NCBI GenBank assembly: GCA_041678665.1
Contig: JBAYNU010000001.1
Location: forward strand, 80,996-144,995
Direction of reading: 5' to 3'
Origin: Candidatus Magasanikiibacteriota bacterium
Lineage (GTDB): Bacteria > Patescibacteriota > Patescibacteriia > Magasanikbacterales > GWA2-37-8
Length of the DNA stretch: 64,000 nucleotides
Shown: positions 7,154 through 45,200 of the stretch, one piece after another
Position numbering within the stretch: position 1 is the first letter of the stretch
How the letters are laid out: every line of letters starts with the position of its first letter
Notes under the pieces: generated by a model
Seen by the model: only the letters and a program-made list of their open reading frames with translations
Told to the model about the DNA's origin: nothing
Databases searched by the model: none
Translations under genes and position numbers: made by a program

Positions 7154-10105
7154 TTACTTACTAACAGCGAATTCACTCACCCACCCCAAAAACTTATCAA
7201 AATTTTTCTGGTCGCCTTGGAACTCAATGATTTTGTCGGTATTTTTTAGACCATTGGGATAAACTTCCAGCACATCATATTTATTTTCACCGGTTTTTAA
7301 ATCCGTATCCGACAGCCTACGCGCGCTGTAATTATAAAATTCGGTGGTGGTAATAGTTGCTTCCGGCACCGGATGACCCATTTTTTGTACAAACACCATA
7401 AAATATTCCTTACCATCGGCCGACGCGAATTTCACCCCATCTTCCCAATGGCTCACTTGCCAAGAGCGCGGATATTTTATAGCCATCTTTACAAAACTAT
7501 CTTCATTATAAGTGGTTTCGCCGGTTTGCACTTGCGCCAATTTCGCATCTAACTCCGCCCGGATTCTATCTTCGGCTGTTCCCAAATCACTCACCACTTT
7601 TGCCTTAAAATCATCAAGCATCGCCTGCTGATTAATCGCCTGACAAGTATAACCCGAAAGGCCAAGCACGAGCCCCAAGACGCCAAAAATTAAAAGTAAT
7701 TTGGAAGCCATAGCAACATTAAATTTAGAAGTAAATTTGGTACCAAGTTTCTTTTCCATATCAGCAATACGTTGTCTGGTTTTAAGAACGGTGTCGGGAT
7801 TGAGAGATATACTATCTATCCCCTCTTGCACCAAAAATTCGGCAAATTCGGGATAGTCGCTGGGCGCTTGTCCGCAAATTCCTACCTTGCGACCATGTTT
7901 GTGGGCGGTGCGGATAACATCGCGAATTAATTTTTTTACGGCCGCATTTTTTTCGTCATATACATGACTGACGAGCGCGCTATCGCGATCCACTCCAAGT
8001 GTAAGCTGGGTTAGATCGTTACTGCCAATACTAAACCCATCAAAAATTTCACTAAACTCATCGGCCAAAATCACATTGCTGGGAATTTCGCACATTACAT
8101 AAACCTGCAAACCATTTTTGCCCCGCTCCAAACCAAATTCTTTCATGGTCGCCAAAACTTTTTTACCTTCTTCTACGGTGCGACAAAACGGCACCATCAC
8201 AATGACATTTTTTAGTCCCCAATGCTCACGCACTTTTTTGATTGCCTCACACTCCAATTTAAACCCGGGCTTATAAGCCGGATCATAATAACGCGAAGCC
8301 CCCCGCCAGCCGATCATGGGGTTTTCTTCTTTGGGTTCATAATCATGCCCGCCAATTAAAGTGGCATATTCATTAGTTTTAAAATCCGACAAACGCACGA
8401 TCACATCACTCGGCGCAAAAGCCGTGGCGATAAAAGCAATACCTTCGGCCAACTTATCTACACAAAATTGTGATTTGTTATCGTAACCAATAGTCAACTC
8501 GTCAATTTTATTCCTTACTCCTTTATCCTTAATCCTTTCGTAGTTCACCAAAGCCATTGGATGGATCTTGATAAAATTGGTAAAAATAAATTCCTCGCGC
8601 GCCAGCCCCACCCCGCCATTGGGAATGGCAGCCAGTGAAAATGCGCTATCCGGATCGCCCACATTCATCATGATTTTGGTACGCGTGGATTTGATTTGTT
8701 TGATCTCGTGCTTTTCCACCTCAAACGGCAAAAGCCCTTTATACACATACCCCACTTCACCCTGCGCGCACGACACTGTTACCGGCTCGCCGGCATAAAC
8801 AAGCTTGCGCGCGCCTTTGGCGCCCACAATACATGGTATTCCCAGCTCGCGACTCACAATCGCCGCATGGCTGGTCTTGCCACCCTGCTCGGTAACAATG
8901 GCCGCGGCAATGCGCATAATGGGCTCCCAATCGGGGTCGGTAATGCGAGTAATCAAAACTTCGCCCGGCTTGAATTGTTTCATTTGTTTGGGCGAGTTAA
9001 TCACCCGCGCGCGACCATGACCAATTTTTTGCCCCACACTCGCGCCGGTCACTAATACTTTGCCTGCCTCCTTGGATTTGAGACGATAATTTTCAATTAC
9101 ATTAATTTTTGCTTGTGATTTTACGGTTTCTCCACGTGCTTGTACGATAAATAATTTTTTGGTTCTGCCATCGAGCGCCCATTCAATATCCATGGCATGG
9201 CCATAATGCTCTTCGATAATCATGCCCCACTTGGCCAGTTGAATAACTTGATCTTCGGTAAGGCAATATTGTTTTCGATCCGACACTGCCACCTTTTCTT
9301 GTTTGGTACCTACCTTACCATAAATTAACTTGACCTCTTTTGAGCCCAACCGTCGGCTAATAATTGATTTAAAACCTTTTTTCGCGCCTTCTTTATATAC
9401 ATAATACTGATCCGGCACTACCCGGCCCTTAACCACATATTCACCCAAACCATAGGCGGCGTTGATTAAAACCACGCCTTTAAAACCGGATTCGGTATCC
9501 AAAGTAAACATTACGCCCGAAGCGCCCATATCGGAACGTACCATCTCTTGCACGCAAACCGAAAGCGCTACCGCCGTATGCTCAAAACCCTTGGCCTCGC
9601 GATAAGAAATCGCACGGTCGGTAAATAGCGAAGCAACGCATTTTTTGCAGGCTTCGAGCAATTCTTTTTCGCCACGGACATTAAGATAGGTTTCTTGTTG
9701 TCCGGCAAAACTGGCATCAGGCAAATCTTCGGCGGTAGCCGAAGATCGCACCGCCACATCGATGGGCTTATTCTTACCAAGTTTTTTATAATTTTTAAAA
9801 ATCTCTTCTTCTATTTCTTTGGGGAATTCGGCGGACAAAACCATCTTACGCACCTTCTCACCGGCAACAGATAGCGCGCGTAAATTTTTCACATCCAATC
9901 CTTTGAGCGCTTCTTTGATTTTTTTATCCAATTTATTTTCTTTGATAAACACCCAATAGGCATCACTGGTCAACGCAAAACCATTGGGTACAGGGACACC
10001 CTTTTTAGCCAACTTAGCATACATCTCGCCGAGTGAAGCGTTTTTCCCGCCCACACTAGGAATATCTTTGATTGTCAGATCTTTAAACCAACGGACGAAG
10101 TTCAT
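7154..10105 (-). CDS. ppsA: Phosphoenolpyruvate synthase (pyruvate, water dikinase) with a ~185-aa C-terminal extension
   Basis: Collinear with PpsA over ~790 aa (VGGKNASLGEM, RSSATAEDLPDASFAGQQETYLNV, TDPDWEPIM, GGKTSHAAIVSRELGIPCIVG, IVRLSDFKTNEYA, GFSIGSNDLTQL, GICGQAPSD). It then continues in-frame through MASKLLLIFGVLGLVLGLSGYTCQA... (signal-peptide/TM-like) and ~170 further residues. Confidence 0.9.
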   Translation of the reverse strand: MNFVRWFKDLTIKDIPSVGGKNASLGEMYAKLAKKGVPVPNGFALTSDAYWVFIKENKLDKKIKEALKGLDVKNLRALSVAGEKVRKMVLSAEFPKEIEEEIFKNYKKLGKNKPIDVAVRSSATAEDLPDASFAGQQETYLNVRGEKELLEACKKCVASLFTDRAISYREAKGFEHTAVALSVCVQEMVRSDMGASGVMFTLDTESGFKGVVLINAAYGLGEYVVKGRVVPDQYYVYKEGAKKGFKSIISRRLGSKEVKLIYGKVGTKQEKVAVSDRKQYCLTEDQVIQLAKWGMIIEEHYGHAMDIEWALDGRTKKLFIVQARGETVKSQAKINVIENYRLKSKEAGKVLVTGASVGQKIGHGRARVINSPKQMKQFKPGEVLITRITDPDWEPIMRIAAAIVTEQGGKTSHAAIVSRELGIPCIVGAKGARKLVYAGEPVTVSCAQGEVGYVYKGLLPFEVEKHEIKQIKSTRTKIMMNVGDPDSAFSLAAIPNGGVGLAREEFIFTNFIKIHPMALVNYERIKDKGVRNKIDELTIGYDNKSQFCVDKLAEGIAFIATAFAPSDVIVRLSDFKTNEYATLIGGHDYEPKEENPMIGWRGASRYYDPAYKPGFKLECEAIKKVREHWGLKNVIVMVPFCRTVEEGKKVLATMKEFGLERGKNGLQVYVMCEIPSNVILADEFSEIFDGFSIGSNDLTQLTLGVDRDSALVSHVYDEKNAAVKKLIRDVIRTAHKHGRKVGICGQAPSDYPEFAEFLVQEGIDSISLNPDTVLKTRQRIADMEKKLGTKFTSKFNVAMASKLLLIFGVLGLVLGLSGYTCQAINQQAMLDDFKAKVVSDLGTAEDRIRAELDAKLAQVQTGETTYNEDSFVKMAIKYPRSWQVSHWEDGVKFASADGKEYFMVFVQKMGHPVPEATITTTEFYNYSARRLSDTDLKTGENKYDVLEVYPNGLKNTDKIIEFQGDQKNFDKFLGWVSEFAVSK
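8505..8540. repeat. Short AG-rich repeat (AAAGGAGTAAGGAATAAA family) inside ppsA, in-frame
   Basis: attttattccttactcctttatccttaatcc encodes KDKGVRNK on the coding strand. Near-identical copies are at 38581..38620 (cca) and 58990..59060 (intergenic). Confidence 0.6.
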
Positions 10106-10291: not shown

Positions 10292-10543
10292 CTACTTTGT
10301 CACAGCTACATCTTTTTTCTTTCCGGCCGTAAGCAAATAAACAATCTCCAAAATTCCGAGCGTGTTGATTATCATAATAGCGATAAACCAACCTAATTGA
10401 TTATTACGCCCAGCACGCCACAAAGCAATGCCTTTCCAGATAACCGACCAAATCATAAGTATAGGCATAATCAGAAGTATAAACGCAATCCAACCAACCC
10501 CGGCCGATTGCGCCTGCCCACTCGCTAAATAATCTTGCCACAT
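10292..10543 (-). CDS. Small two-helix membrane protein, unknown function
   Basis: 83-aa hydrophobic ORF with a lysine-rich C-terminus. Confidence 0.4.
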   Translation of the reverse strand: MWQDYLASGQAQSAGVGWIAFILLIMPILMIWSVIWKGIALWRAGRNNQLGWFIAIMIINTLGILEIVYLLTAGKKKDVAVTK

Positions 10544-14040: not shown

Positions 14041-14568
14041 TTATTGTTCTTGTGGATGTGCTTTGGCATAAGCAAAAAATCCCGCTTGTAATTGATCAAA
14101 CTTTAATTGATCTGATTCTGATAAAACAATCTTAAGCTCAATTCCTTGCGTTCTTTGATCAATAGTATATTTACCCTTACCGATTAATTCATCGGCTCTT
14201 GCCAGAAGCAATTTATATTCTTCATCAATCTCTGTTTCGTTTTTCGAATCTCTGGCTTCATCTTTTGATAATATATTGCCGTGCTCACGATAATACTCTT
14301 CTGTATATTCTGACGGAATCCTACCACCCTTGCCAATGAATCTCTTGAGTGAATTAATATATAATGATACCACATCTTTGTGTGGCTGAAATAATTTATC
14401 TCCACGATTAAAATCATTTTGTTTAAAAATAAATACACCATCTTCTTTTACATATAAAACGTCCACATTCCAATCATGCTCAATTTTTTCAATAGTATCC
14501 CTTATTTCTTGTGTGGCTTCTTCGACAGTGTGTTCGTATTCCCTCCTCGATGAAGATTTCTCTGACAT
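14041..14568 (-). CDS. Hypothetical acidic protein
   Basis: 175-aa ORF packed tightly between glyQS and the M16 peptidase. No recognisable motif. Confidence 0.45.
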   Translation of the reverse strand: MSEKSSSRREYEHTVEEATQEIRDTIEKIEHDWNVDVLYVKEDGVFIFKQNDFNRGDKLFQPHKDVVSLYINSLKRFIGKGGRIPSEYTEEYYREHGNILSKDEARDSKNETEIDEEYKLLLARADELIGKGKYTIDQRTQGIELKIVLSESDQLKFDQLQAGFFAYAKAHPQEQ

Positions 14569-16627: not shown

Positions 16628-17722
16628 TCAACTATCCAACAAAGTAAATCCCAAAAATAATTCACTGGTTTGATTTGGATGAACAAACATCATTGCCGGC
16701 ACCGTATTAGTGGGTAATTTCTTGGTTACCCAATTAACCCCGCCGTCCACTGACTTATAAAAAGTCGAACGAATGTGAGTATTTTTATCGCCCAAAAGTG
16801 TTCCGGTATAATACATTTCTTTTTGATTTTTTGGGTTCACCGCAAACGCGTAAATATTCACATTGCCTGGAGGAGTTAACAACTTTAATTCTGACCAAGT
16901 AACGCCGGCGTCATCAGATCGCAAAATACCGTATTTGGAAATCCAAAATAAACCATCCGATTGGGCTGGGTTAAGGATTAAGCGATAAAAAATCTTACTA
17001 TCGCTAAAAGCATTTAAATTTTTATTCAAATCAACCCAGGTAACACCACCATCGTCCGATCTAAACAATCCGTTGCGATAAGAAGCCACATAAAGACGCT
17101 TGGCCGCTTGCGGATCTACCGCTAAATGTTGCAATTCAAAACCAAAACTCTTTATAGTGCGCCAACTCTTGCCGGCATCACTGCTAATAATAATATCTCC
17201 GCCTAATTCGGCTCCATAAACAATGCTACTATTACCATAATCTATACCTAAAGCCACAAATCGTTGATTGGGGCGCTGTTCGGAATAAATCAAATTCCAA
17301 GTACGAGAACAATCGATTGATTTAAAAATGTACTGACCATCACTGGCATACATGGTGCATTTATCTTTAGGGTCAATGGCAAAACCATAAATAAATTTTC
17401 CAGCCAAAGATGGAATCGCCTGCCAGCTATCCCCACTATTATAAGTGTAATACATCCCTTGACCACGCGTAGCCATATAATAAGCATTGGGATCAGATGG
17501 GTCGTTATACAAACGAAAAACCTTAATTCCCGACATGTTCCCTACTCCTTTGGCGGTTGGTAAAGCATTGATTGCTTGCCAAGTCTCACCTTTATCAACT
17601 GATCGAAACATGCCCATTGATCCTTGAGCGGAAGATGAACCGCCGCCAATTGAAATACAAGAAGCGCCGGTAATAACGAATAACGCTAGCAAAGAAAATA
17701 AAATACCTATCTTTATCTTCAT
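16628..17722 (-). CDS. Secreted BNR/Asp-box repeat beta-propeller protein
   Basis: Signal peptide followed by seven S-x-D-x-G-x-T-W type Asp-box repeats (SVDKGETW, SIDCSRTW, SSDAGKSW, SDDGGVTW, SDDAGVTW, SVDGGVNW). Confidence 0.6.
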   Translation of the reverse strand: MKIKIGILFSLLALFVITGASCISIGGGSSSAQGSMGMFRSVDKGETWQAINALPTAKGVGNMSGIKVFRLYNDPSDPNAYYMATRGQGMYYTYNSGDSWQAIPSLAGKFIYGFAIDPKDKCTMYASDGQYIFKSIDCSRTWNLIYSEQRPNQRFVALGIDYGNSSIVYGAELGGDIIISSDAGKSWRTIKSFGFELQHLAVDPQAAKRLYVASYRNGLFRSDDGGVTWVDLNKNLNAFSDSKIFYRLILNPAQSDGLFWISKYGILRSDDAGVTWSELKLLTPPGNVNIYAFAVNPKNQKEMYYTGTLLGDKNTHIRSTFYKSVDGGVNWVTKKLPTNTVPAMMFVHPNQTSELFLGFTLLDS

Positions 17723-21450: not shown

Positions 21451-22935
21451 CTATAATCTTTTTTTTGCCGATACGTTAAATCCTAAATACTTTCCAAACA
21501 TTAAATGAGTAACCGCGTCAAGGCACGGCAAAGCGGAGAAGAAAACCAAAGACACCGGAAGCAAAAGCCATTGAGCAATCATAAACAAGTATTTATGGGG
21601 CGAATGATGACCGGGACGAACGGGCATAATAAGCATGCTCATGACGGTAGATACGAACAAACCCAACATGGCTAAACGCATTAAATTTTCCAAAACAAAC
21701 GGCGTGTTAAAAAATAAAGCGCTTTGACGAATTTCGTCGGGAGCAATCCAAAGTGGCAACCGCCCTAAGATTGTAATGAGAATAGCCACCACCGCCCAAC
21801 TCCATTTTCCCTCCCATTCGTGAAATAAAACAACAAATTTCTTCCAAAGACCAATACGCGGATGTAGCCGATATTGCCATAATAAATAAGGAATATGCTC
21901 AGTCCCCCATGCCCAGCGCCGTTGTTGAAAATATAAATTTTTCAAACTGCCTATTAATTTATTATCACGCACCGTATCCATTGATACCGGAATGTATAGG
22001 GGAGTCACCTCATAGTCACCATTATAATGTAACCAACATTGAAAAAATATTCGTGAATCTTCGCTAACGATATTCTTGGCATGACCACCGCAATCTATCA
22101 ATGCCTTAAAGCTCATGCTATGAGAAGAAAAGGTTACCAAGTTATCTAAACGAGCCAGGCTAAAAAGCATCCAGAAACTGGTACTGAAAGCCATAATACG
22201 TAATACCGAAGGCGACTCCCATAAATTATTATTATAAAGAGTAACCGGCTGAAAAGAACTGCGAGTGGGGTTAGGATGAAGACAATAAGTGTAAGTTAGA
22301 TGAGCAAAATATTCTTTATGCACCACAGTGTCGATGTCAAATATTGACACAATAATATTGGCGTAATCCCATTTTTTTTGATCGGCATATTTTTTAAATT
22401 CCCATTCGGCAAAATGAATATTAGAACCCTTACCGGAAATTTCACCCGGCAAATCAGCGGGATGAGTATACAACAATAAATCAGCAAAACGTCCAGAAAA
22501 ATTTTGCTGAATTTTTTCTTTCACTGTCTGCCAATGATCCCCATTTCGCTGTTCACCTGAAATTATAATATAAAGACGCTCAACTGGATAAGAAGACGCC
22601 AAAAGACTAAGCAAGGTGGCCGCTACCACCTCATAAGATTCATTATAAATAGGTAAAAATATTACATTAATCCGCTTAGACCAATCCGGTATTTCTTTTT
22701 TTAATTTCTCCAACCAATTTATTCGAATTGACTTGCGAAAACGCCACCAAGACAAAATTAAATAGAATGAAAAATAAACTACTCGCAAAACCCAATAAAC
22801 ATCAAAAATTAAAATGGCATAAATCATCCAAAGCGGTTTAATAAAAGATAAAGCAACACACCCCAAAAGAGTAAACCAAATACTGGCTCCGGGAAGTATC
22901 TCGTATAAACGATAACGCTGATAATCGGAAAACAT
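21451..22935 (-). CDS. Processive family-2 glycosyltransferase (cellulose/chitin-synthase-like, membrane-embedded)
   Basis: 494 aa, multiple TM helices flanking a GT-A domain, with the QQRRWAWG (QxxRW) processive-GT2 motif. Confidence 0.7.
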   Translation of the reverse strand: MFSDYQRYRLYEILPGASIWFTLLGCVALSFIKPLWMIYAILIFDVYWVLRVVYFSFYLILSWWRFRKSIRINWLEKLKKEIPDWSKRINVIFLPIYNESYEVVAATLLSLLASSYPVERLYIIISGEQRNGDHWQTVKEKIQQNFSGRFADLLLYTHPADLPGEISGKGSNIHFAEWEFKKYADQKKWDYANIIVSIFDIDTVVHKEYFAHLTYTYCLHPNPTRSSFQPVTLYNNNLWESPSVLRIMAFSTSFWMLFSLARLDNLVTFSSHSMSFKALIDCGGHAKNIVSEDSRIFFQCWLHYNGDYEVTPLYIPVSMDTVRDNKLIGSLKNLYFQQRRWAWGTEHIPYLLWQYRLHPRIGLWKKFVVLFHEWEGKWSWAVVAILITILGRLPLWIAPDEIRQSALFFNTPFVLENLMRLAMLGLFVSTVMSMLIMPVRPGHHSPHKYLFMIAQWLLLPVSLVFFSALPCLDAVTHLMFGKYLGFNVSAKKRL

Positions 22936-24085: not shown

Positions 24086-26359
24086 ATGAATCATGTTTTG
24101 CGCCTCCACGAATTCTTCGTTGAAGGCAAAAATCAACAAAAATCACACGTGCTGTTACACATTACCGAGCCGGCCACCGAAACCGAAAAACAAAAAGGAT
24201 ACTTTTTTGCTGTCTGCGAAATTAATAATGGCGACATTAATAAAATTCTTAAACTGCAAGAGATTATTGACCAAATAGAAAATGAATATTATGAAATTTC
24301 TGCCGGTGATAATAATGACATTTTTGAAGCCACCTTGAACAAGGTTAATCCCGCCGGTTTCTCTTTGCTCAAAAATGATTTAGTACTCAATTGTTTGGTG
24401 GGAGTAATCAAACAGGCTGAAATTATATTTTCTTTCTACGGCCAACCGGTATTGGCGTTATTTTATAAAAATAAACAAGGTCTTTATCAAAAACTTGATT
24501 TAATTGAATCTAATCAGGAAGAAGAAAATACTACCCTATTTTCTCAGGTCATCCAAGGAAAAATAAGCCCGGAAGATCACCTTTTTGTTGGAACACCCCA
24601 TATTCTAGATTACTTTAATTTAGATAGAATTGAAAAAATTATCACTACCCGCCCCGCTCGACAAAGCGCCGAGCATTTAGAAAGAGTGCTAACAGAATTA
24701 AAAAATGGTTATTCTTTCGGCGGTTTAATCATTAATTTGCATCCCCAAGACGAAACCACTGGCAATCGCGCAAAAATTCTACCACCCCAAGAAGGATCAG
24801 CAAAATCTCTAAACAATTTTTTTGACACTGAAAAACAAACTGCCGACATTCTTTCCCCTTCGGTTATGCCTAAAATGGGAAGCAAACTAAAAAGCTTTTT
24901 TCATTCCGCCAAAAATTCTTCTACATCAAATACTAATATCAGCATTAAACAGCAACCTGCGGAAATTCAATCTACCCACCTACGTCCGCACCGCTCCAAC
25001 AGAAACAATACCGACACACAGAATACCATCGCCAATTTAAAAATATACACCAAAAAAAGTGCGGTTTTAATTGGGCAAGGGTTGATTTGGATAATTATGG
25101 CCGTCTGGACCATTGTTTGGCAATTCATCAATTTAATTGGTCTAATATTTTTGATTATTACCAATATTCAGAATCGCCGACAAATGATCCTGGAAAATTG
25201 GCGACGGGGGTGGAACGGATACAAAAATAATCTTAAACAACTGCCGCTAACTACTAAAATTCTTTTGGGGTCATCTGCAATTGTCGCCTTAATTTTTATT
25301 TCTAGTATAATCTACTTACGCCACCAACAATCTCAAAAAGCTAACCAACAAATGTTTAATTCCTATTTGGAACAAATCACAGCCAAAAAAGATGCCGCCG
25401 AAAGCGCGCTTATATACAATGATGAAAATGCAGCCTTAATTCAAATCCAAGCGGCCAATCAACTACTAAATGAATTGGATTGTAAAAATAAAGATAATCA
25501 GAATGATTGCGAAAAAATAAAAGATTCTTTAGAACAACTGGCAATAAAATTACGCAAGATAACTATTGTTAATCCCCAAATATTATTTGATTGGTCTAGC
25601 GAAATAGAAAAACAAAAATTAACTGCATTTTTGAAATTAGGAACAAAAATTATTGCTTACAGTCCAAACACTTCATCTTTGTTTATTTATGACGCCCTAA
25701 CAAAAAACAACAAAGTGTTACCGATAAACATTATTGGCACTGCCGGTTTGGAAGCAGCAGCTGTCCCCAAGGAAAATGATTACGCTTTATTTGTTTATAA
25801 CAAAACTTCTCTCATCCGTTATGATCCTACCGATAATTCAATCAAAAATATTGAAGTATCCTACCCTAATTCGAATGCTGAAATAAAAGGAATAGTAATC
25901 TACAATCGCCGTCTTTATTCTTTAGACGTATTTAATAACTCCATTTACCGCCATGATTCAATCAAAAATGGCTTCGCCCAAGGAGTGCCGTGGTTGAAAG
26001 ACAATAATACTGACCTGAAAAATGGCGTTGATATTACTATTGATGGCGACTTATTCGTACAAAAAAGCGACGGTAATATTGTCAAATTTAACGCCGGGGT
26101 CACTCAGCTATTTAATATCCAAGGACTGGATCCTGTTCTAACTTCCGCCAACGAAATCTGGACTTACACCGATTTAAACTATTTATATATTCTTGATACC
26201 GATAATAATCGCCTAATATTATTGAATAAAGATGGGCGAATAAAAAACCAAATTATGGCGGAACAATTTGTCCACCCCGATGACATGATAATTGACGAAC
26301 CGAATAACCGCGCTTATATTTTGGACGAAAACAAACTCTACCAAATTAATTTAAAATAA
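24086..26359 (+). CDS. Large membrane protein: N-terminal soluble domain, central TM helices, coiled coil, C-terminal beta-propeller-like repeats
   Basis: 757 aa. TM segments around residues 330-410, a Gln/Asn-rich coiled-coil, and repeated hydrophobic-N-x-I-Y/L blades at the C-terminus. No assignable family. Confidence 0.5.
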   Translation: MNHVLRLHEFFVEGKNQQKSHVLLHITEPATETEKQKGYFFAVCEINNGDINKILKLQEIIDQIENEYYEISAGDNNDIFEATLNKVNPAGFSLLKNDLVLNCLVGVIKQAEIIFSFYGQPVLALFYKNKQGLYQKLDLIESNQEEENTTLFSQVIQGKISPEDHLFVGTPHILDYFNLDRIEKIITTRPARQSAEHLERVLTELKNGYSFGGLIINLHPQDETTGNRAKILPPQEGSAKSLNNFFDTEKQTADILSPSVMPKMGSKLKSFFHSAKNSSTSNTNISIKQQPAEIQSTHLRPHRSNRNNTDTQNTIANLKIYTKKSAVLIGQGLIWIIMAVWTIVWQFINLIGLIFLIITNIQNRRQMILENWRRGWNGYKNNLKQLPLTTKILLGSSAIVALIFISSIIYLRHQQSQKANQQMFNSYLEQITAKKDAAESALIYNDENAALIQIQAANQLLNELDCKNKDNQNDCEKIKDSLEQLAIKLRKITIVNPQILFDWSSEIEKQKLTAFLKLGTKIIAYSPNTSSLFIYDALTKNNKVLPINIIGTAGLEAAAVPKENDYALFVYNKTSLIRYDPTDNSIKNIEVSYPNSNAEIKGIVIYNRRLYSLDVFNNSIYRHDSIKNGFAQGVPWLKDNNTDLKNGVDITIDGDLFVQKSDGNIVKFNAGVTQLFNIQGLDPVLTSANEIWTYTDLNYLYILDTDNNRLILLNKDGRIKNQIMAEQFVHPDDMIIDEPNNRAYILDENKLYQINLK

Positions 26360-30706: not shown

Positions 30707-31810
30707 TTAATCAACAAACTCGAATCCGGCTATCATTTTATCAAATGCAGCAATATAATCACCGGTGTCGTTGGTAACAAAAAACACATATACTCGATTA
30801 TTTTTCTCGGCAAAGATATAGCGCTCCGGCTTGTTACGTGTACCTTTATAAAAAGTAAGATAAACGCTCTTGTGGTCGGACAACAAGGTTAAGCTCTGAA
30901 AATATTTTAATTTACGTCCATTAAAAGCGCGCTCTGACTCTTGGGCAATGGTACTGCTAGTAATTCTTAATCCGACTGTTTTATCATCTGCGTCTTTTCC
31001 GCAAACAAACAACTCCACATCCACCGGTGGATATACCTGATCGGAATTATTTTTGAATAAACAATCATTGGGATAAATTAGTTTAAATTTAAAACGCTCG
31101 TTAATATATGTTTGTCCGGTCGGTTTAATAACCCCACCATTATTTGAATTACTATTAACCGTTTCATCACCTTGATCACTATCTACCGCCGGCAATTCAT
31201 TAGCAAAAAATTTCATTGATCCAATAATGCGATTAAATAAATTTAGCGACGTGTCGGTCAAATCATTGCGCCCAATAGAAATATAAATGTAATAATCCTG
31301 ATCTTGGTTGATAAAATAAGCCGGCCCAGGCACAGCTCCGGCCCAATCTGATTTTTCCACTTTGATTGCACTTCGTCCGCCAATATTTACCGACGTACGT
31401 TTGCCGTTGGGCAGCAGTCCTGTTTTATTATTACTATCAATTTTGCTGTCAATCCAGGCGATAAAGTTAGTCGTGGTATTTTTCTTTATGCCGGCACGAA
31501 TTTCTATCCCCAAAAAATCAGGTGGACATTGCACCCCGATACAATCCGCGTTGCCTAATTTTACACTTAAAAAATCATCGGAAACACTCTCGTTTTTGAA
31601 CCAATTTGAAGGATAGTCAAAACTAACGCCATATTTTTTGTTCTCATAAGTTCGCCAACCGCTCACCGTAGAAGGACTGTCTGTGCCACCAGTATCTAAT
31701 GATGTGGAATTTTGCACATAAAGCGAAGTGCCTTCGTTGGAACATGATGCTCCCATAAATAACAAAACACCTAACGCCAAAAATAGCAGGCTTAATTTTT
31801 TACCCATCAT
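30707..31810 (-). CDS. Secreted/lipoprotein-like protein of unknown function with two similar domains
   Basis: Signal peptide with Cys (LFMGASCSNEG). Two segments of similar character (YGVSFDYPSNWFKNES... and KFKLIYPNDCLFKNNS...). Confidence 0.5.
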   Translation of the reverse strand: MMGKKLSLLFLALGVLLFMGASCSNEGTSLYVQNSTSLDTGGTDSPSTVSGWRTYENKKYGVSFDYPSNWFKNESVSDDFLSVKLGNADCIGVQCPPDFLGIEIRAGIKKNTTTNFIAWIDSKIDSNNKTGLLPNGKRTSVNIGGRSAIKVEKSDWAGAVPGPAYFINQDQDYYIYISIGRNDLTDTSLNLFNRIIGSMKFFANELPAVDSDQGDETVNSNSNNGGVIKPTGQTYINERFKFKLIYPNDCLFKNNSDQVYPPVDVELFVCGKDADDKTVGLRITSSTIAQESERAFNGRKLKYFQSLTLLSDHKSVYLTFYKGTRNKPERYIFAEKNNRVYVFFVTNDTGDYIAAFDKMIAGFEFVD

Positions 31811-31912: not shown

Positions 31913-33163
31913 TTATTCACGCCTTAATGCGTCAATCGGATTTAAAGCTGAGGCCTTGCGGGCGGGATACAACCCAAATATTAAGCCAATCACACCCGAA
32001 AATCCAACTGCGAGAATTATAGAAGAAATTGGTATAGAATAAACCCAGACAAAATTATAATAAATTGCGATGAAATAAATAAGTAGCGCCAACAGAGCGC
32101 CTAGAATAATTCCCACTACTCCCCCGCTAATAGTAAGTAAAACCGCCTCGGATAAAAATTGCCACATAATATCACGCGAACGCGCGCCTAAACTTTTACG
32201 CAAACCAATCTCAAATGTCCGCTCGGTTACCGACACATACATAATATTCATAATCCCTACCCCGCCGACTAATAATGACACGCAAACCAAAGCAACTAAT
32301 AAAAATGTCAGTCCATTTACCACAGTGGATAACATCTTGACCGCTTCTTCCATAGTATTCACGGCAAAATCATCTTTGTTGGGATCAGTAATATCGTGAT
32401 TTTCACGCACCGCTTCCTCTAATTCAATCACCGTTTGTTTAATTTGCGAACGATCTTTTGCTTTACCTACAATTTCTAAAAAATAATCCACCCCCAAAAT
32501 TCGTTTTTGCATAGTTTTGGTGGGTAAATAAGCCACGGTATCAAAATCCATGCCCATAACGGCGCCACGTTTTTTAGCCACGCCCACCACTCGAAATGGC
32601 TTGCCTTTGATATAAACCGTTTTTCCTACGGCCTCATCATCGCCAAACAAATTATCTTTCAACGACGACCCTAAAACCGTCACTTGCGAAAGCGATTCTT
32701 CTTCGGATTGCGTATAAAGCCGCCCGGCCGACAATTCAAACTTTTCCACCTCTTGCAAATTATAACCTTCACCAAAAAGCATGGCAGTTTTGGTTTGATC
32801 TTGATATTTAATTACCGCCTGACCCATGACAATACCGTAAGCCGCCATAATGTTAGAATTTTTCCGCGTCGATTCCAAATCCTTCTCCTTTAAGGTGGTA
32901 ATAGTAATACCTGTAGCCATACCCATGGCATTATCCGAGCTAGCTTTTTTAGTGGACGGCACTTTTACTTCTATCGTGATGGTATTGGGAGAGAATGTTT
33001 CCAGCTGACTCATCACCATTTTATCTAAACCTCGCCCAGCCGCCATAATTGCGATTACCAAAGCAATACCAATGCTCACCCCGATAATCGTCAAAATCGC
33101 ACGAGTTTTCTGCGCGCGTAGGGATTTATAGGCGAGTTGTAAAGGTATTAAGTTCATAGCCAA
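31913..33163 (-). CDS. ABC transporter permease, MacB/FtsX family (second permease)
   Basis: 416 aa. N-terminal TM, large periplasmic MacB-PCD-like domain, C-terminal FtsX four-helix module. The ORF-track start is TTG; the ATG is at 33155..33157. Confidence 0.8.
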   Translation of the reverse strand: MAMNLIPLQLAYKSLRAQKTRAILTIIGVSIGIALVIAIMAAGRGLDKMVMSQLETFSPNTITIEVKVPSTKKASSDNAMGMATGITITTLKEKDLESTRKNSNIMAAYGIVMGQAVIKYQDQTKTAMLFGEGYNLQEVEKFELSAGRLYTQSEEESLSQVTVLGSSLKDNLFGDDEAVGKTVYIKGKPFRVVGVAKKRGAVMGMDFDTVAYLPTKTMQKRILGVDYFLEIVGKAKDRSQIKQTVIELEEAVRENHDITDPNKDDFAVNTMEEAVKMLSTVVNGLTFLLVALVCVSLLVGGVGIMNIMYVSVTERTFEIGLRKSLGARSRDIMWQFLSEAVLLTISGGVVGIILGALLALLIYFIAIYYNFVWVYSIPISSIILAVGFSGVIGLIFGLYPARKASALNPIDALRRE

Positions 33164-33216: not shown

Positions 33217-34452
33217 CTACTCGTATCTTAGCGCCTCAATCGGATCAAGCTTGGCGGCGCGTTTGGCCGGGGAAATTCCAAAAATCAAACCTACACCGAC
33301 CGACACTAACACCCCCATCACAATTGAAGAAAATGAAACAGAAAAATCCCAGCTATAACCCATGCCCTGCGCCACTTTGGCCACGGTGTAAGAAATTAAA
33401 ATGCCCAAAATAATTCCAATCACCCCACCGATAGAGGTAATCATGATTGACTCTACCAAAAATTGCGAAGTAATATTTTTATTCTTCGCCCCCACTGCTT
33501 TGCGTAATCCTATTTCACGCGTGCGTTCCTGCACAGCCGCAAGCATAATATTCATAATGCCAATTCCGCCCACAATAAGAGCGATCGCCGCTACCGCCGC
33601 CAGAAACATCTTGAGGGCATTGGTTATAGAAGTTATGGCATCCAAACTCTGTGCCATTGAACGCACCGAAAAATCATCATCTTTGGCATTTTCAATCTTA
33701 TGTCTTTCGCGTAAAATAACCTTGGCATCTTCCATGGCCGAATTAACATTGTCGCCAGTGTCAACTTTAAGCCGCGCAAAACTAATATGGTTTATTCCAA
33801 GTAATAACTTTTGTGCCGTATTAAGTGGCACAAAAATTTGGTCATCCTGATTTTGCATACCACTACTACCACGCGCCTTCATCACTCCGACAATATTAAA
33901 AACGGTTTTTTTAATTTTAATATCCTGTCCCAGGGGATTCTGATCGCTAAATAAGTTTTTAGCTACCGTACTACCAATTACCGCTACTCGCGCTACACTC
34001 CTATCCTCATCCTCGGTAAAAAATCTTCCTACTCCAATAGACGCGTCTTCCACATCCGGATATTGACCGGATACACCAGTAAAATTGGTATCGGTTTTTT
34101 GATCGCCCCAGGTGATGGTATCAGTCCCTTTTACATAACCGGTCGCCGCCAAAATATGCGGGTTATTTTTTGTCACCGCCACTATATCGCTTTCTTTAAG
34201 AGTGGTAATTACAATCCCCATAACCGAAGCTGGGGGGCCTTTTTCATCCGAAGCACCGGGTAAAATACCAATAAGATTGGAACCCATGCTTTTCACTTGA
34301 TTAATAATCAAACTCTGCGCCCCTGCTCCCACTGACATCACAATAATCACAGCCATTACGCCAATAATAATTCCGAGCATCGTTAAAAATGATCGAACCT
34401 TATTGCGCCCGATTACATGCCAGACACTGTGAATTTCTTGAAGTAAGTTCAT
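33217..34452 (-). CDS. ABC transporter permease, MacB/FtsX family (first permease)
   Basis: 411 aa, same architecture as the downstream paralogue. Confidence 0.8.
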   Translation of the reverse strand: MNLLQEIHSVWHVIGRNKVRSFLTMLGIIIGVMAVIIVMSVGAGAQSLIINQVKSMGSNLIGILPGASDEKGPPASVMGIVITTLKESDIVAVTKNNPHILAATGYVKGTDTITWGDQKTDTNFTGVSGQYPDVEDASIGVGRFFTEDEDRSVARVAVIGSTVAKNLFSDQNPLGQDIKIKKTVFNIVGVMKARGSSGMQNQDDQIFVPLNTAQKLLLGINHISFARLKVDTGDNVNSAMEDAKVILRERHKIENAKDDDFSVRSMAQSLDAITSITNALKMFLAAVAAIALIVGGIGIMNIMLAAVQERTREIGLRKAVGAKNKNITSQFLVESIMITSIGGVIGIILGILISYTVAKVAQGMGYSWDFSVSFSSIVMGVLVSVGVGLIFGISPAKRAAKLDPIEALRYE

Positions 34453-45126: not shown

Positions 45127-45200
45127 CGGGGTGTGGCCCAATTGGCTAAGGCGCGTGATTCGGGTTCACGAGATTCCGGGTTCAAGTCCCGGCACCCCGA
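45127..45200 (+). tRNA. tRNA-Pro (anticodon CGG)
   Basis: CGGGGTG acceptor pairs with CACCCCG. Anticodon stem CGTGA/TCACG with loop TTCGGGT. T-arm CCGGG-TTCAAGT-CCCGG. Discriminator A. 74 nt. Confidence 0.85.

What the first reader, a model, noticed from the sequence alone, without database searches (positions are those of the whole stretch)
7154..7770. PEP synthase fused in-frame to a signal-peptide-like segment and a ~170-aa extra domain
After the normal PpsA C-terminus (...SLNPDTVLKTRQRIADMEKKL) the frame continues with no stop. It reads through MASKLLLIFGVLGLVLGLSGYTCQA, which looks like a secretion signal or TM anchor, and then a further ~170-residue domain with no obvious homology, ending at 7154. 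The internal Met at 7709..7711 could be the start of an independent secreted protein whose separating stop is missing. A cytoplasmic central-metabolism enzyme tethered to or followed by an extracytoplasmic domain is unusual in either case.
Basis: partly seen in the sequence, partly recalled or inferred. Interest (0 to 1): 0.55.

Follow-up and report, generated by a model that had tools for sequence, protein, structure and literature searches.

The report
Membrane-anchored PEP synthase with outside domain
A central-metabolism enzyme (PEP synthase) in this tiny uncultured bacterium really is fused to a membrane-spanning helix and a small domain predicted to sit outside the cell, and the same design recurs in about a hundred related sequence clusters, so it is a conserved, apparently undescribed architecture and not a sequencing error.

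Summary
ORF 7154..10105(-) encodes 983 aa. It has a complete, catalytically intact PpsA (aa 1-789), a Lys-rich linker and an 18-residue uncharged segment ending in Cys821. A long helix and a ~120-aa beta-rich domain follow. The "lost stop" reading is refuted. The identical protein is in NCBI as a Candidatus Magasanikbacteria PEP synthase. About 99 of the best 120 homologue clusters, and all 12 GTDB species genomes carrying the tail, have the same in-frame fusion. The tail evolves under strong purifying selection (dN/dS about 0.08), and the internal Met is not conserved. AlphaFold (pLDDT 88.9) plus Foldseek give a PsbP/Mog1-like fold, with no Pfam family. Charge distribution predicts N-in/C-out topology. 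Sister lineages keep only core plus TM helix, which points to membrane tethering of PpsA as the core feature. The TM-Cys junction looks like a lipoprotein signal. Rare split or stand-alone versions start with a textbook lipoprotein signal peptide, so lipidation or signal-peptidase-II cleavage is possible but untested. Many distant fused relatives have lost PpsA catalytic motifs. I found no literature on this. Verdict: a real new variant of a known enzyme with unknown function, moderately high interest.

The parts
7154..10105 (-). Whole fused ORF, 983 aa (stop TAA at 7154..7156)
   Evidence: The identical protein P0070 is in NCBI as 'MAG: phosphoenolpyruvate synthase [Candidatus Magasanikbacteria bacterium]'.
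7739..10105 (-). PpsA core, aa 1-789: PPDK_N aa 16-334, mobile phospho-His domain aa 378-449, PEP-utilizers_C aa 472-783
   Evidence: Pfam and NCBIfam matches. The motifs RSSATAEDLPDASFAGQ, GGKTSHAAI and VGICGQAPSD are intact.
7700..7738 (-). Lys-rich linker, aa 790-802 (KFTSKFNVAMASK), cytoplasmic side. It contains the non-conserved Met799 (7709..7711).
   Evidence: In 92 fused relatives the 15 residues before the hydrophobic segment carry a net charge of +3.7, against -0.4 after the Cys. A Met is present in only 29 of 92.
7646..7699 (-). Uncharged TM / h-region segment, aa 803-820 (LLLIFGVLGLVLGLSGYT), Gly-rich
   Evidence: Kyte-Doolittle hydropathy 2.2. The uncharged run is exactly 18 residues in 90 of 92 relatives. 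Two Gly positions are at least 90% conserved. AlphaFold models a helix over aa 798-816.
7643..7645 (-). Cys821, the near-invariant Cys at the outer end of the TM segment (lipobox-like G-Y-T-C)
   Evidence: The motif G[YFASG][TGSA]C was found in the 93 close relatives that carry an ectodomain tail plus one TM-only relative (P0153), and Cys is present in about 35 of 38 distant representatives. Column C25 of the alignment is at least 90% conserved.
7523..7630 (-). Long single helix ('stalk'), aa 826-861, variable in sequence
   Evidence: AlphaFold helix over tail residues 30-65, pLDDT 85-93.
7157..7519 (-). Beta-rich PsbP/Mog1-like domain, aa 863-983, predicted to lie outside the cytoplasm. Conserved motifs are YPxxWxVxHWEDGV and VFVQKMGHPV.
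   Evidence: AlphaFold pLDDT 90-98. Foldseek matches PsbP 4rth/4rti, CyanoP 2lnj and Tsi3 3wa5 with prob 0.99-1.00. Weak PsbP and PsbP_2 sequence hits in relatives. dN/dS 0.076.
7056..7082 (-). Terminator-like hairpin (12-bp stem followed by UUUUGAAU), about 70 nt after the stop codon
   Evidence: strand folding gives -22.7 kcal/mol, z = -6.3. The consensus scan reported no promoter-like or terminator-like site at the core-tail junction.
10292..10543 (-). DUF5652 small membrane protein immediately upstream. The same neighbour sits upstream of ppsA in L022.
   Evidence: Pfam PF18893, E = 4e-25. The same DUF5652-ppsA order is seen in L022.

Best explanation
This is a genuine, conserved gene fusion. 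It encodes a catalytically intact PEP synthase held at the cytoplasmic membrane by a single C-terminal transmembrane helix, with the enzyme inside and the C-terminus outside. Beyond the membrane the chain continues as a long helical stalk and a PsbP/Mog1-like beta domain displayed on the cell surface. Shown here: the fusion itself, its conservation, the intact catalytic motifs, the selection on the tail, the predicted fold and the charge asymmetry. Inferred: the topology, and that the conserved function of the extension is first of all to tether PpsA to the membrane. That inference rests on sister lineages that keep only the helix. I further infer that the ectodomain is a binding module for a protein or ligand, as PsbP-like domains usually are, and that it couples the enzyme to something outside the cell. 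The conserved Cys at the outer end of the helix may be lipid-modified or may form an inter-subunit disulfide. I consider an uncleaved bitopic protein somewhat more likely than a cleaved one.
For: The ORF is continuous and the PpsA match is full length. The identical 983-aa protein is in NCBI. All 12 GTDB species genomes with the tail have it in frame with PpsA, in open frames of 957-1006 aa where complete. Of the best 120 clusters, about 99 are core + TM + ~160-aa tail, about 16 are core + TM only and 4 have no TM. All 118 that could be scored (two lacked the anchoring motif) keep the His and Cys catalytic motifs. L022 is a true tail-anchored PpsA with no ectodomain gene downstream and the same DUF5652 neighbour as the window. 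In L023 the ectodomain is lost and the TM kept. The profile search finds 59 clusters at 50% identity, about 25 of them 840-1043 aa long with the tail at the C-terminus. Positive-inside asymmetry is +3.7 before the segment against -0.4 after the Cys, and the uncharged run is a fixed 18 residues. dN/dS is 0.076. The AlphaFold model has pLDDT 88.9, and the Foldseek hits include PsbP, CyanoP and Tsi3, which by general knowledge are extracytoplasmic proteins. A related subtype adds a C-terminal module with four conserved Cys, typical of extracytoplasmic domains. A terminator-like hairpin follows the fused ORF, and no such site lies at the junction.
Against: There is no experimental localisation, and the topology rests on sequence rules only. 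The PDB matches are remote (TM-score 0.37-0.50, 11-12% identity), so the fold says little about the ligand. The junction resembles a lipoprotein signal peptide, and split or stand-alone forms exist, so the mature products could be two proteins. This organism has almost no Shine-Dalgarno sequences, so internal initiation at Met799 cannot be excluded from sequence alone. Exporting a C-terminal domain after an ~800-aa folded cytoplasmic enzyme is unusual.
Confidence: 0.7

Rival explanations
1. Polyprotein processed at an internal lipoprotein signal. The hydrophobic segment plus Cys821 acts as an internal signal-peptidase-II signal. After Sec/YidC insertion, Lgt would lipidate the Cys and LspA would cut before it. 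That would release a surface lipoprotein (stalk plus PsbP-like domain) and leave PpsA tail-anchored by the retained signal peptide.
For: The Cys sits at a fixed distance after an uncharged 18-residue run that follows a Lys-rich n-region. About 40% of close relatives (GYGC, GYSC, GYAC, GAGC, GFSC) and the 'LGAGC' subtype fit the PROSITE lipobox pattern, which I recall from memory. The stand-alone L019/P0042 starts MAHEDKYKKTNKKYLSLVAMVGIMGAALIGLGAGC, preceded by in-frame stops and an AGGA. L018 has a TGA at the junction and a GTG two codons later, which would give MKTNKK...GVGAGC. The window has two N-terminal lipoprotein-like ORFs with G-A-S|C, so Gly at -3 is local usage, and one of them carries a PsbP_2 domain. 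The TM-only PpsA variants look like the predicted N-terminal cleavage product.
Against: The window's own lipobox has Thr at -1 (GYT|C), as do about 60% of close relatives, which is non-canonical. Three distant fused members lack the Cys but keep the TM. I know of no bacterial precedent for lipobox processing about 820 residues into a protein (own knowledge). Lgt and LspA were not found among the window ORFs I annotated, and the rest of the genome was not searched. The conserved Gly pattern in the helix suggests a specific helix-packing role, which a disposable signal would not need.
Confidence: 0.18
2. Two independent proteins from one ORF. Besides any read-through product, translation starts internally at Met799 (7709..7711) and makes a separate secreted or lipid-anchored 185-aa protein.
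For: Starting at Met799 gives a plausible N-terminal signal, MASKLLLIFGVLGLVLGLSGYT|C. The 25 nt upstream are AT-rich, like real start contexts in this Shine-Dalgarno-poor genome. Split relatives exist.
Against: A Met is present in the linker of only 29 of 92 fused relatives, and orthologues read ANATK, ALAAK, SSATK or ASATK at that point. The consensus scan found no promoter-like site at the junction. This would not remove the full-length product in any case.
Confidence: 0.07
3. Artefact: a stop codon or frameshift between ppsA and a downstream secreted-protein gene was lost through sequencing or assembly error.
For: Metagenome-assembled genomes do contain such errors. One relative (L024) carries a 1-nt deletion at exactly this junction, and one contig (L003) is chimeric.
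Against: The same in-frame junction is found in 12 species-level genomes and in about 99 clusters from independent NCBI, JGI, ENA and Logan assemblies. The exact protein appears in three sources. The tail is under strong purifying selection.
Confidence: 0.02

Closest known systems
Bacterial PEP synthase PpsA (pyruvate, water dikinase; TIGR01418 / NF005057)
   Same: Full-length three-domain enzyme with the ATP-grasp, phospho-His and Cys motifs intact. It scores far above the equivalog cutoffs.
   Different: Canonical PpsA is about 790-800 aa, soluble, and ends where this core ends. This protein carries about 195 extra residues: a linker, a TM helix, a stalk and a PsbP-like domain.
PsbP / CyanoP / Mog1-like fold proteins, including the T6SS immunity protein Tsi3 and PsbP_2-type bacterial lipoproteins
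   Same: The predicted fold of aa 863-983 matches PsbP (4rth, 4rti), CyanoP (2lnj) and Tsi3 (3wa5) with Foldseek prob 0.99-1.00. From general knowledge these are extracytoplasmic proteins, and some members of the fold class are lipoproteins.
   Different: No Pfam membership, 11-12% identity and TM-score 0.37-0.50. Here the domain is attached to a cytoplasmic enzyme rather than to an N-terminal signal peptide.
Bacterial lipoprotein signal peptides (SPase II / lipobox, PROSITE PS51257)
   Same: Positively charged n-region, uncharged h-region, small residues and then an invariant Cys. Split or stand-alone homologues carry this element at a true N-terminus.
   Different: The element lies about 820 residues inside the protein. 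The window has Thr at -1, and processing is untested.
N-in/C-out bitopic receptor-type enzymes such as PknB-like Ser/Thr kinases (cytoplasmic catalytic domain, TM helix, extracellular PASTA domains); comparison from own knowledge
   Same: The same overall layout: a cytoplasmic enzyme, a single TM helix and an extracellular binding domain. This suggests outside-in control or localisation.
   Different: The catalytic module here is a central-carbon enzyme and not a signalling kinase. No evidence of regulation was obtained.
Archaeal multimeric PEP-synthase homologue (MAPS, Staphylothermus marinus) with a C-terminal coiled-coil extension; from own knowledge, not tested here
   Same: A PpsA homologue whose function is modified by a C-terminal helical extension.
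   Different: The MAPS extension is a short soluble oligomerisation helix, with no TM segment or ectodomain.

Membership tests
PEP synthase PpsA (TIGR01418 / NF005057) | Whole-protein score above the curated equivalog cutoff, with an end-to-end model match | tested here: met
   NF005057 scores 1200 bits (cutoff 598), aa 2-789 against model positions 5-794 of 798. TIGR01418 scores 1159.9 bits (cutoff 739.75).
PEP synthase PpsA (TIGR01418 / NF005057) | Three-domain layout PPDK_N + PEP-utilizers mobile domain + PEP-utilizers_C | tested here: met
   PF01326 E = 7e-124, PF00391 E = 4e-25, PF02896 E = 5e-66.
PEP synthase PpsA (TIGR01418 / NF005057) | Catalytic phospho-His (GGxTSHAA) and active-site Cys (GICGQ) motifs | tested here: met
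   GGKTSHAAI and VGICGQAPSD are present in the window protein and in 118 of 118 scored close relatives.
PEP synthase PpsA (TIGR01418 / NF005057) | Pyruvate, water dikinase activity | not testable with these tools
   Needs an enzyme assay.
Bacterial lipoprotein signal peptide (SPase II; PROSITE PS51257) | Located at the N-terminus, with the Cys within about the first 40 residues | tested here: not met
   The Cys is residue 821 of 983. It would be residue 23 only if translation started at the non-conserved Met799.
Bacterial lipoprotein signal peptide (SPase II; PROSITE PS51257) | Positively charged n-region followed by an uncharged h-region | tested here: met
   Five Lys in aa 785-802. The uncharged run is 18 residues. 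The family mean is +3.7 net charge before the segment.
Bacterial lipoprotein signal peptide (SPase II; PROSITE PS51257) | Lipobox with [AGS] at -1 before an invariant Cys (pattern recalled from PROSITE) | tested here: not met
   The window reads S-G-Y-T-C, with Thr at -1. Among close relatives, 38 of 93 have G, S or A at -1 and 55 of 93 have T. The Cys itself is conserved.
Bacterial lipoprotein signal peptide (SPase II; PROSITE PS51257) | Lgt and LspA encoded by the organism | tested here: inconclusive
   Neither was found among the roughly 30 window ORFs I annotated. Two N-terminal G-A-S|C lipoprotein-like ORFs in the window suggest the pathway exists. The rest of the genome was not available.
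PsbP / Mog1-like domain (Pfam PsbP PF01789, PsbP_2 PF18933) | PsbP-like alpha/beta sandwich fold | tested here: met
   AlphaFold pLDDT 88.9. Foldseek PDB: 4rth E = 9e-4, prob 1.00; also 2lnj and 3wa5. Similarity is modest (TM-score 0.37-0.50).
PsbP / Mog1-like domain (Pfam PsbP PF01789, PsbP_2 PF18933) | Sequence match above the Pfam gathering score | tested here: not met
   The window tail has no hit. Only 2 of 24 relatives hit PsbP (best E = 0.012) and 2 hit PsbP_2 (best E = 0.055).
Bitopic N-in/C-out (signal-anchor) membrane protein | A single hydrophobic segment of TM length with positive-inside charge bias | tested here: met
   Kyte-Doolittle hydropathy 2.2, 18 uncharged residues, net charge +3.7 against -0.4, modelled as a helix.
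Bitopic N-in/C-out (signal-anchor) membrane protein | Demonstrated membrane localisation and topology | not testable with these tools
   Needs fractionation or reporter fusions.

The most novel reading that the evidence does not exclude
The fused ORF is a bacterial 'polyprotein' split at an internal lipoprotein signal. Lgt and LspA would act on a lipobox about 820 residues into the chain. One translation product would then yield both a tail-anchored PEP synthase on the inner face of the membrane and a PsbP-like lipoprotein on the outer face. The two could stay associated as a trans-membrane pair that links central carbon flux to the cell surface in host-dependent CPR bacteria. The pseudoenzyme relatives would be a purely structural or signalling offshoot of the same design.
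Probability: 0.15. Interest if true: 0.85.

Novelty: new variant of a known kind. Interest (0 to 1): 0.6.

Why it matters
PEP synthase is textbook soluble central metabolism. This work shows that in a large branch of the Candidate Phyla Radiation (Magasanikbacteria and other Patescibacteria) the enzyme is almost always membrane-tethered. It usually also carries a conserved surface domain. A further set of paralogue-like relatives has lost the catalytic residues but kept the anchor and the ectodomain. This points to an unrecognised link between the PEP/pyruvate node and the cell envelope or exterior in organisms that live attached to hosts and have minimal metabolism. It defines a new PsbP-like domain family and raises a testable question about internal lipoprotein-type processing. 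It also matters for annotation and metabolic modelling, because databases label all of these proteins simply 'phosphoenolpyruvate synthase', including ones that are probably not enzymes.

Tried and rejected
1. P0004/L003 first seemed to show the domain behind a type IV pilin-like N-terminus. I rejected this as a chimeric 1-kb scaffold, because GC jumps from about 22% to 42% exactly where the homology begins.

2. P0001 and P0002 looked like stand-alone tails, but both start at contig edges. P0020 and P0025 start at 'MEKK' only because the gene caller forced a start, and their frames are open to the contig edge.

3. I considered an alternative genetic code (UGA = Gly) for the TGA at the L018 junction. 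I rejected it because the other genes on the contig have no in-frame TGA and end in TAG, TAG and TAA.

4. The Shine-Dalgarno test for Met799 is uninformative, because this genome has almost no SD sequences.

5. The first AlphaFold run, with 5 sequences, failed (pLDDT 43). The 24-sequence alignment succeeded.

7. hhalign of the tail profile against the window's PsbP_2 lipoprotein aligned only the signal and Cys region, with probability 6%.

8. The word-index protein search with the tail found only 4-10 hits although many fused proteins exist. The exhaustive profile search and the full-length search were needed.

9. Cluster look-up gave no taxonomy for the distant subtype.

10. Five literature searches found no description.
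Full report
**The observation**

The window contains one uninterrupted ORF on the minus strand, 7154..10105, 983 aa. Pfam finds the three PpsA domains: PPDK_N at aa 16-334, the mobile phospho-His domain at aa 378-449 and PEP-utilizers_C at aa 472-783. The two NCBIfam PEP synthase equivalog models match from end to end, aa 2-789, at 1200 and 1160 bits, far above their cutoffs. A normal PpsA therefore ends at about residue 790.

The frame then continues for about 195 residues with no Pfam or NCBIfam match. Met799 is at 7709..7711, the hydrophobic run is aa 803-820, and Cys821 follows.

**Is it an error?**

It is not. A search with the tail alone first found only four relatives. One of them (P0003, from a Magasanikbacteria MAG) showed the same junction.

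A scan of one genome per GTDB species found 12 loci. In every one the tail is in frame with PpsA, with open frames of 957-1006 aa where the contig allows.

A full-length search shows the identical 983-aa protein in NCBI, JGI and ENA as 'MAG: phosphoenolpyruvate synthase [Candidatus Magasanikbacteria bacterium]'. Among the best 120 clusters (63-100% identity):
- about 99 have core + TM + a ~160-aa tail
- about 16 have core + TM only
- 4 have no TM

All 118 clusters that could be scored retain the catalytic His and Cys motifs.

An exhaustive profile search of 1.84 billion cluster representatives found 59 clusters carrying the tail. About 25 of them are 840-1043 aa proteins with the tail at the C-terminus.

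Against the 81%-identical relative, the tail has dN/dS of about 0.08, with synonymous sites near saturation. The internal Met is not conserved: it is present in the linker of only 29 of 92 fused relatives, and orthologues read ANATK, ALAAK or SSATK there. A strong terminator-like hairpin (7056..7082, z = -6.3) follows the fused ORF, and the consensus scan reported no promoter-like or terminator-like site at the junction.

**Anatomy of the extension**

The linker is Lys-rich. The uncharged run before the Cys is exactly 18 residues in 90 of 92 relatives. Net charge is +3.7 on the N-terminal side and -0.4 after the Cys. By the positive-inside rule, this places the enzyme in the cytoplasm and the tail outside.

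Two Gly positions in the helix and the Cys are at least 90% conserved, even among sequences only 20-25% identical elsewhere.

With a 24-sequence alignment, AlphaFold gives a confident model (pLDDT 88.9). It has a TM helix, a 36-residue helix and a compact beta-rich domain. An earlier 5-sequence attempt failed.

Foldseek against the PDB returns plant PsbP, cyanobacterial CyanoP and the T6SS immunity protein Tsi3 at prob 0.99-1.00, with TM-scores of only 0.37-0.50. A few relatives give weak PsbP or PsbP_2 sequence hits. The domain is thus a remote PsbP/Mog1-like fold outside any Pfam family. By general knowledge, these structural neighbours are extracytoplasmic proteins.

**What the relatives say about function**

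Three lines of evidence are informative.

1. TM-only forms are real. L022 encodes an 823-aa PpsA that ends exactly at the helix. The next gene is on the opposite strand, and the same DUF5652 gene lies upstream as in the window. L023 ends 'GGYTCQIFGR' and is followed by an unrelated gene. The anchor is therefore retained when the ectodomain is lost. This argues that membrane tethering of PpsA is the primary selected feature.

2. Split or stand-alone forms exist.
   - L018 has a TGA exactly at the junction and a GTG two codons later, which would start MKTNKKYLSLVLAIGVMAATFMGVGAGC. The other genes on that contig contain no in-frame TGA, so the standard code applies.
   - L019/P0042 has its own ATG, preceded by in-frame stops and an AGGA. 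It begins with a textbook lipoprotein signal peptide ending LGAGC.
   - L024 has a 1-nt deletion inside the Cys codon, which separates core + TM from a still-intact ectodomain ORF. The same product is found on five contigs.

3. Many distant fused representatives have lost the ATP-grasp, phospho-His and Cys motifs but keep the anchor and ectodomain. The architecture evidently has a role beyond catalysis.

A distant subtype adds a C-terminal module with four conserved Cys, which again suggests an extracytoplasmic location.

**Mechanism**

I commit to the following. The product is a membrane-tethered PEP synthase with N-in/C-out topology and a surface-exposed PsbP-like binding domain on a helical stalk.

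The open question is what happens at the junction.
- The lipoprotein-like features are a conserved Cys after a fixed-length h-region, a Lys-rich n-region and the split homologues with N-terminal lipoprotein signals. The window also has its own N-terminal lipoprotein-like ORFs with G-A-S|C, one of which carries a PsbP_2 domain. These features make lipidation, and even LspA cleavage at an internal site, conceivable.
- Against this, the window has Thr at -1, as do about 60% of close relatives. Three distant members lack the Cys. The conserved Gly pattern suggests specific helix packing. I know of no bacterial precedent for such internal processing.

I put the uncleaved bitopic form ahead of the cleaved form. 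Either way, PpsA ends up membrane-anchored. Internal initiation at Met799 cannot be excluded, because the genome lacks Shine-Dalgarno sequences and the upstream region is AT-rich like true starts. Lack of conservation makes it unlikely to be the point of the design.

**Comparison with known systems**

The protein is a bona fide member of the PpsA family on every feature I could test. The extension is not part of any described PpsA. Its ectodomain works like a PsbP-family domain but fails Pfam membership. Its junction works like a lipoprotein signal but fails the positional criterion and, in the window, the -1 criterion.

The overall layout resembles receptor-type enzymes such as PknB-like kinases. 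The archaeal MAPS protein is another PpsA homologue with a C-terminal helical extension. Both comparisons come from my own knowledge and were not tested here.

The five literature searches found no description of a membrane-anchored or PsbP-fused PEP synthase. Databases label all these proteins plain PEP synthase.

**Verdict**

The feature is real, conserved and unremarked: a new variant of a known enzyme family. It is common in Magasanikbacteria and other Patescibacteria, its function is unknown, and it raises a testable processing question. Interest 0.6.

Noticed in passing
L003 1..1044 (protein P0004): This ENA scaffold joins a dnaN 3' end and a pilin-like N-terminus (GC about 22%) to a Magasanikbacteria-type ectodomain (GC about 42%). 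The switch falls exactly where the homology begins, so this is almost certainly a chimeric assembly and not a pilin fusion.
   Followed up: yes
L018 1..905: A split variant. ppsA ends with TGA exactly at the junction (...AAVVKSLG*), and a GTG two codons later would start a lipoprotein-type signal, MKTNKKYLSLVLAIGVMAATFMGVGAGC. Other genes on the contig show no in-frame TGA, so the standard code applies.
   Followed up: partly
L024 5440..5963 (protein P0127): A single-base deletion inside the conserved Cys codon (ACA TCC AAA where ACA TGC CAA is expected) separates PpsA + TM from a still-intact 150-aa ectodomain ORF. The same 839-aa product occurs on 5 contigs. This could be recent pseudogenisation or frameshifting.
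   Followed up: partly
L019 14..766 (protein P0042): A stand-alone homologue of the tail with its own ATG, in-frame stops and an AGGA upstream, and an N-terminal lipoprotein signal ending LGAGC. Only 13 nt of upstream sequence are available, so its neighbour is unknown.
   Followed up: partly
Proteins P0024, P0030, P0033, P0036, P0053, P0055, P0056, P0058, P0060 and others (distant subtype): A second subtype has the junction 'EKTVGRTGKKTH', then the TM, then 'LGAGC'. It also carries an extra C-terminal module with four conserved Cys (THWDVRExRxC..ITYAR..C..F.TPCDVPxGWxVCD) that has no family assignment.
   Followed up: no
Proteins P0010, P0012, P0017, P0021, P0024, P0026, P0027, P0030-P0036, P0043, P0049, P0054, P0055, P0060: Most distant fused representatives have lost the ATP-grasp, phospho-His and active-site Cys motifs of PpsA but retain the TM and ectodomain. 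This is a probable pseudoenzyme branch, some members of which sources annotate as pyruvate, water dikinase.
   Followed up: partly
window 30707..31810 (-), with 31913..33163 and 33217..34452 (-): An ORF with an N-terminal lipoprotein-like signal (MMGKKLSLLFLALGVLLFMGAS|C) and a PsbP_2 domain (PF18933, 28.8 bits) lies next to two MacB/FtsX-type permease genes.
   Followed up: partly
window 16628..17722 (-): A second lipoprotein-like ORF (MKIKIGILFSLLALFVITGAS|C) carries Sortilin/BNR repeats and a Ycf48-like match (PSII_BNR). PsbP-like and Ycf48-like surface proteins are odd in a non-photosynthetic CPR bacterium.
   Followed up: no
window 10292..10543 (-) and L022 2656..2925: A DUF5652 small membrane protein sits directly upstream of ppsA, both in the window and in a lineage whose PpsA is only tail-anchored. 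This is conserved synteny of unknown meaning.
   Followed up: no
window, start regions of about 29 ORFs: Start codons are preceded by AT-rich sequence with almost no Shine-Dalgarno motif, so RBS-based start calling is unreliable in this genome.
   Followed up: partly
L007, L010, L013, L015, L016; protein P0092: Public records that carry this Magasanikbacteria-type fused gene are titled 'uncultured Gammaproteobacteria bacterium' (TPA assemblies) or 'Candidatus Udaeobacter sp.'. These are probably mislabelled taxonomy.
   Followed up: no
window 1941..2343 (+), 5639..5712 (-), 45127..45200 (+): A tmRNA gene (119 bits) and two tRNA genes. There are no rRNA genes in the window.
   Followed up: no
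window 21451..22935 (-), 24086..26359 (+), 14041..14568 (-), 6655..6993 (-): Several sizeable ORFs (494, 757, 175 and 112 aa) have no Pfam match at all.
   Followed up: no
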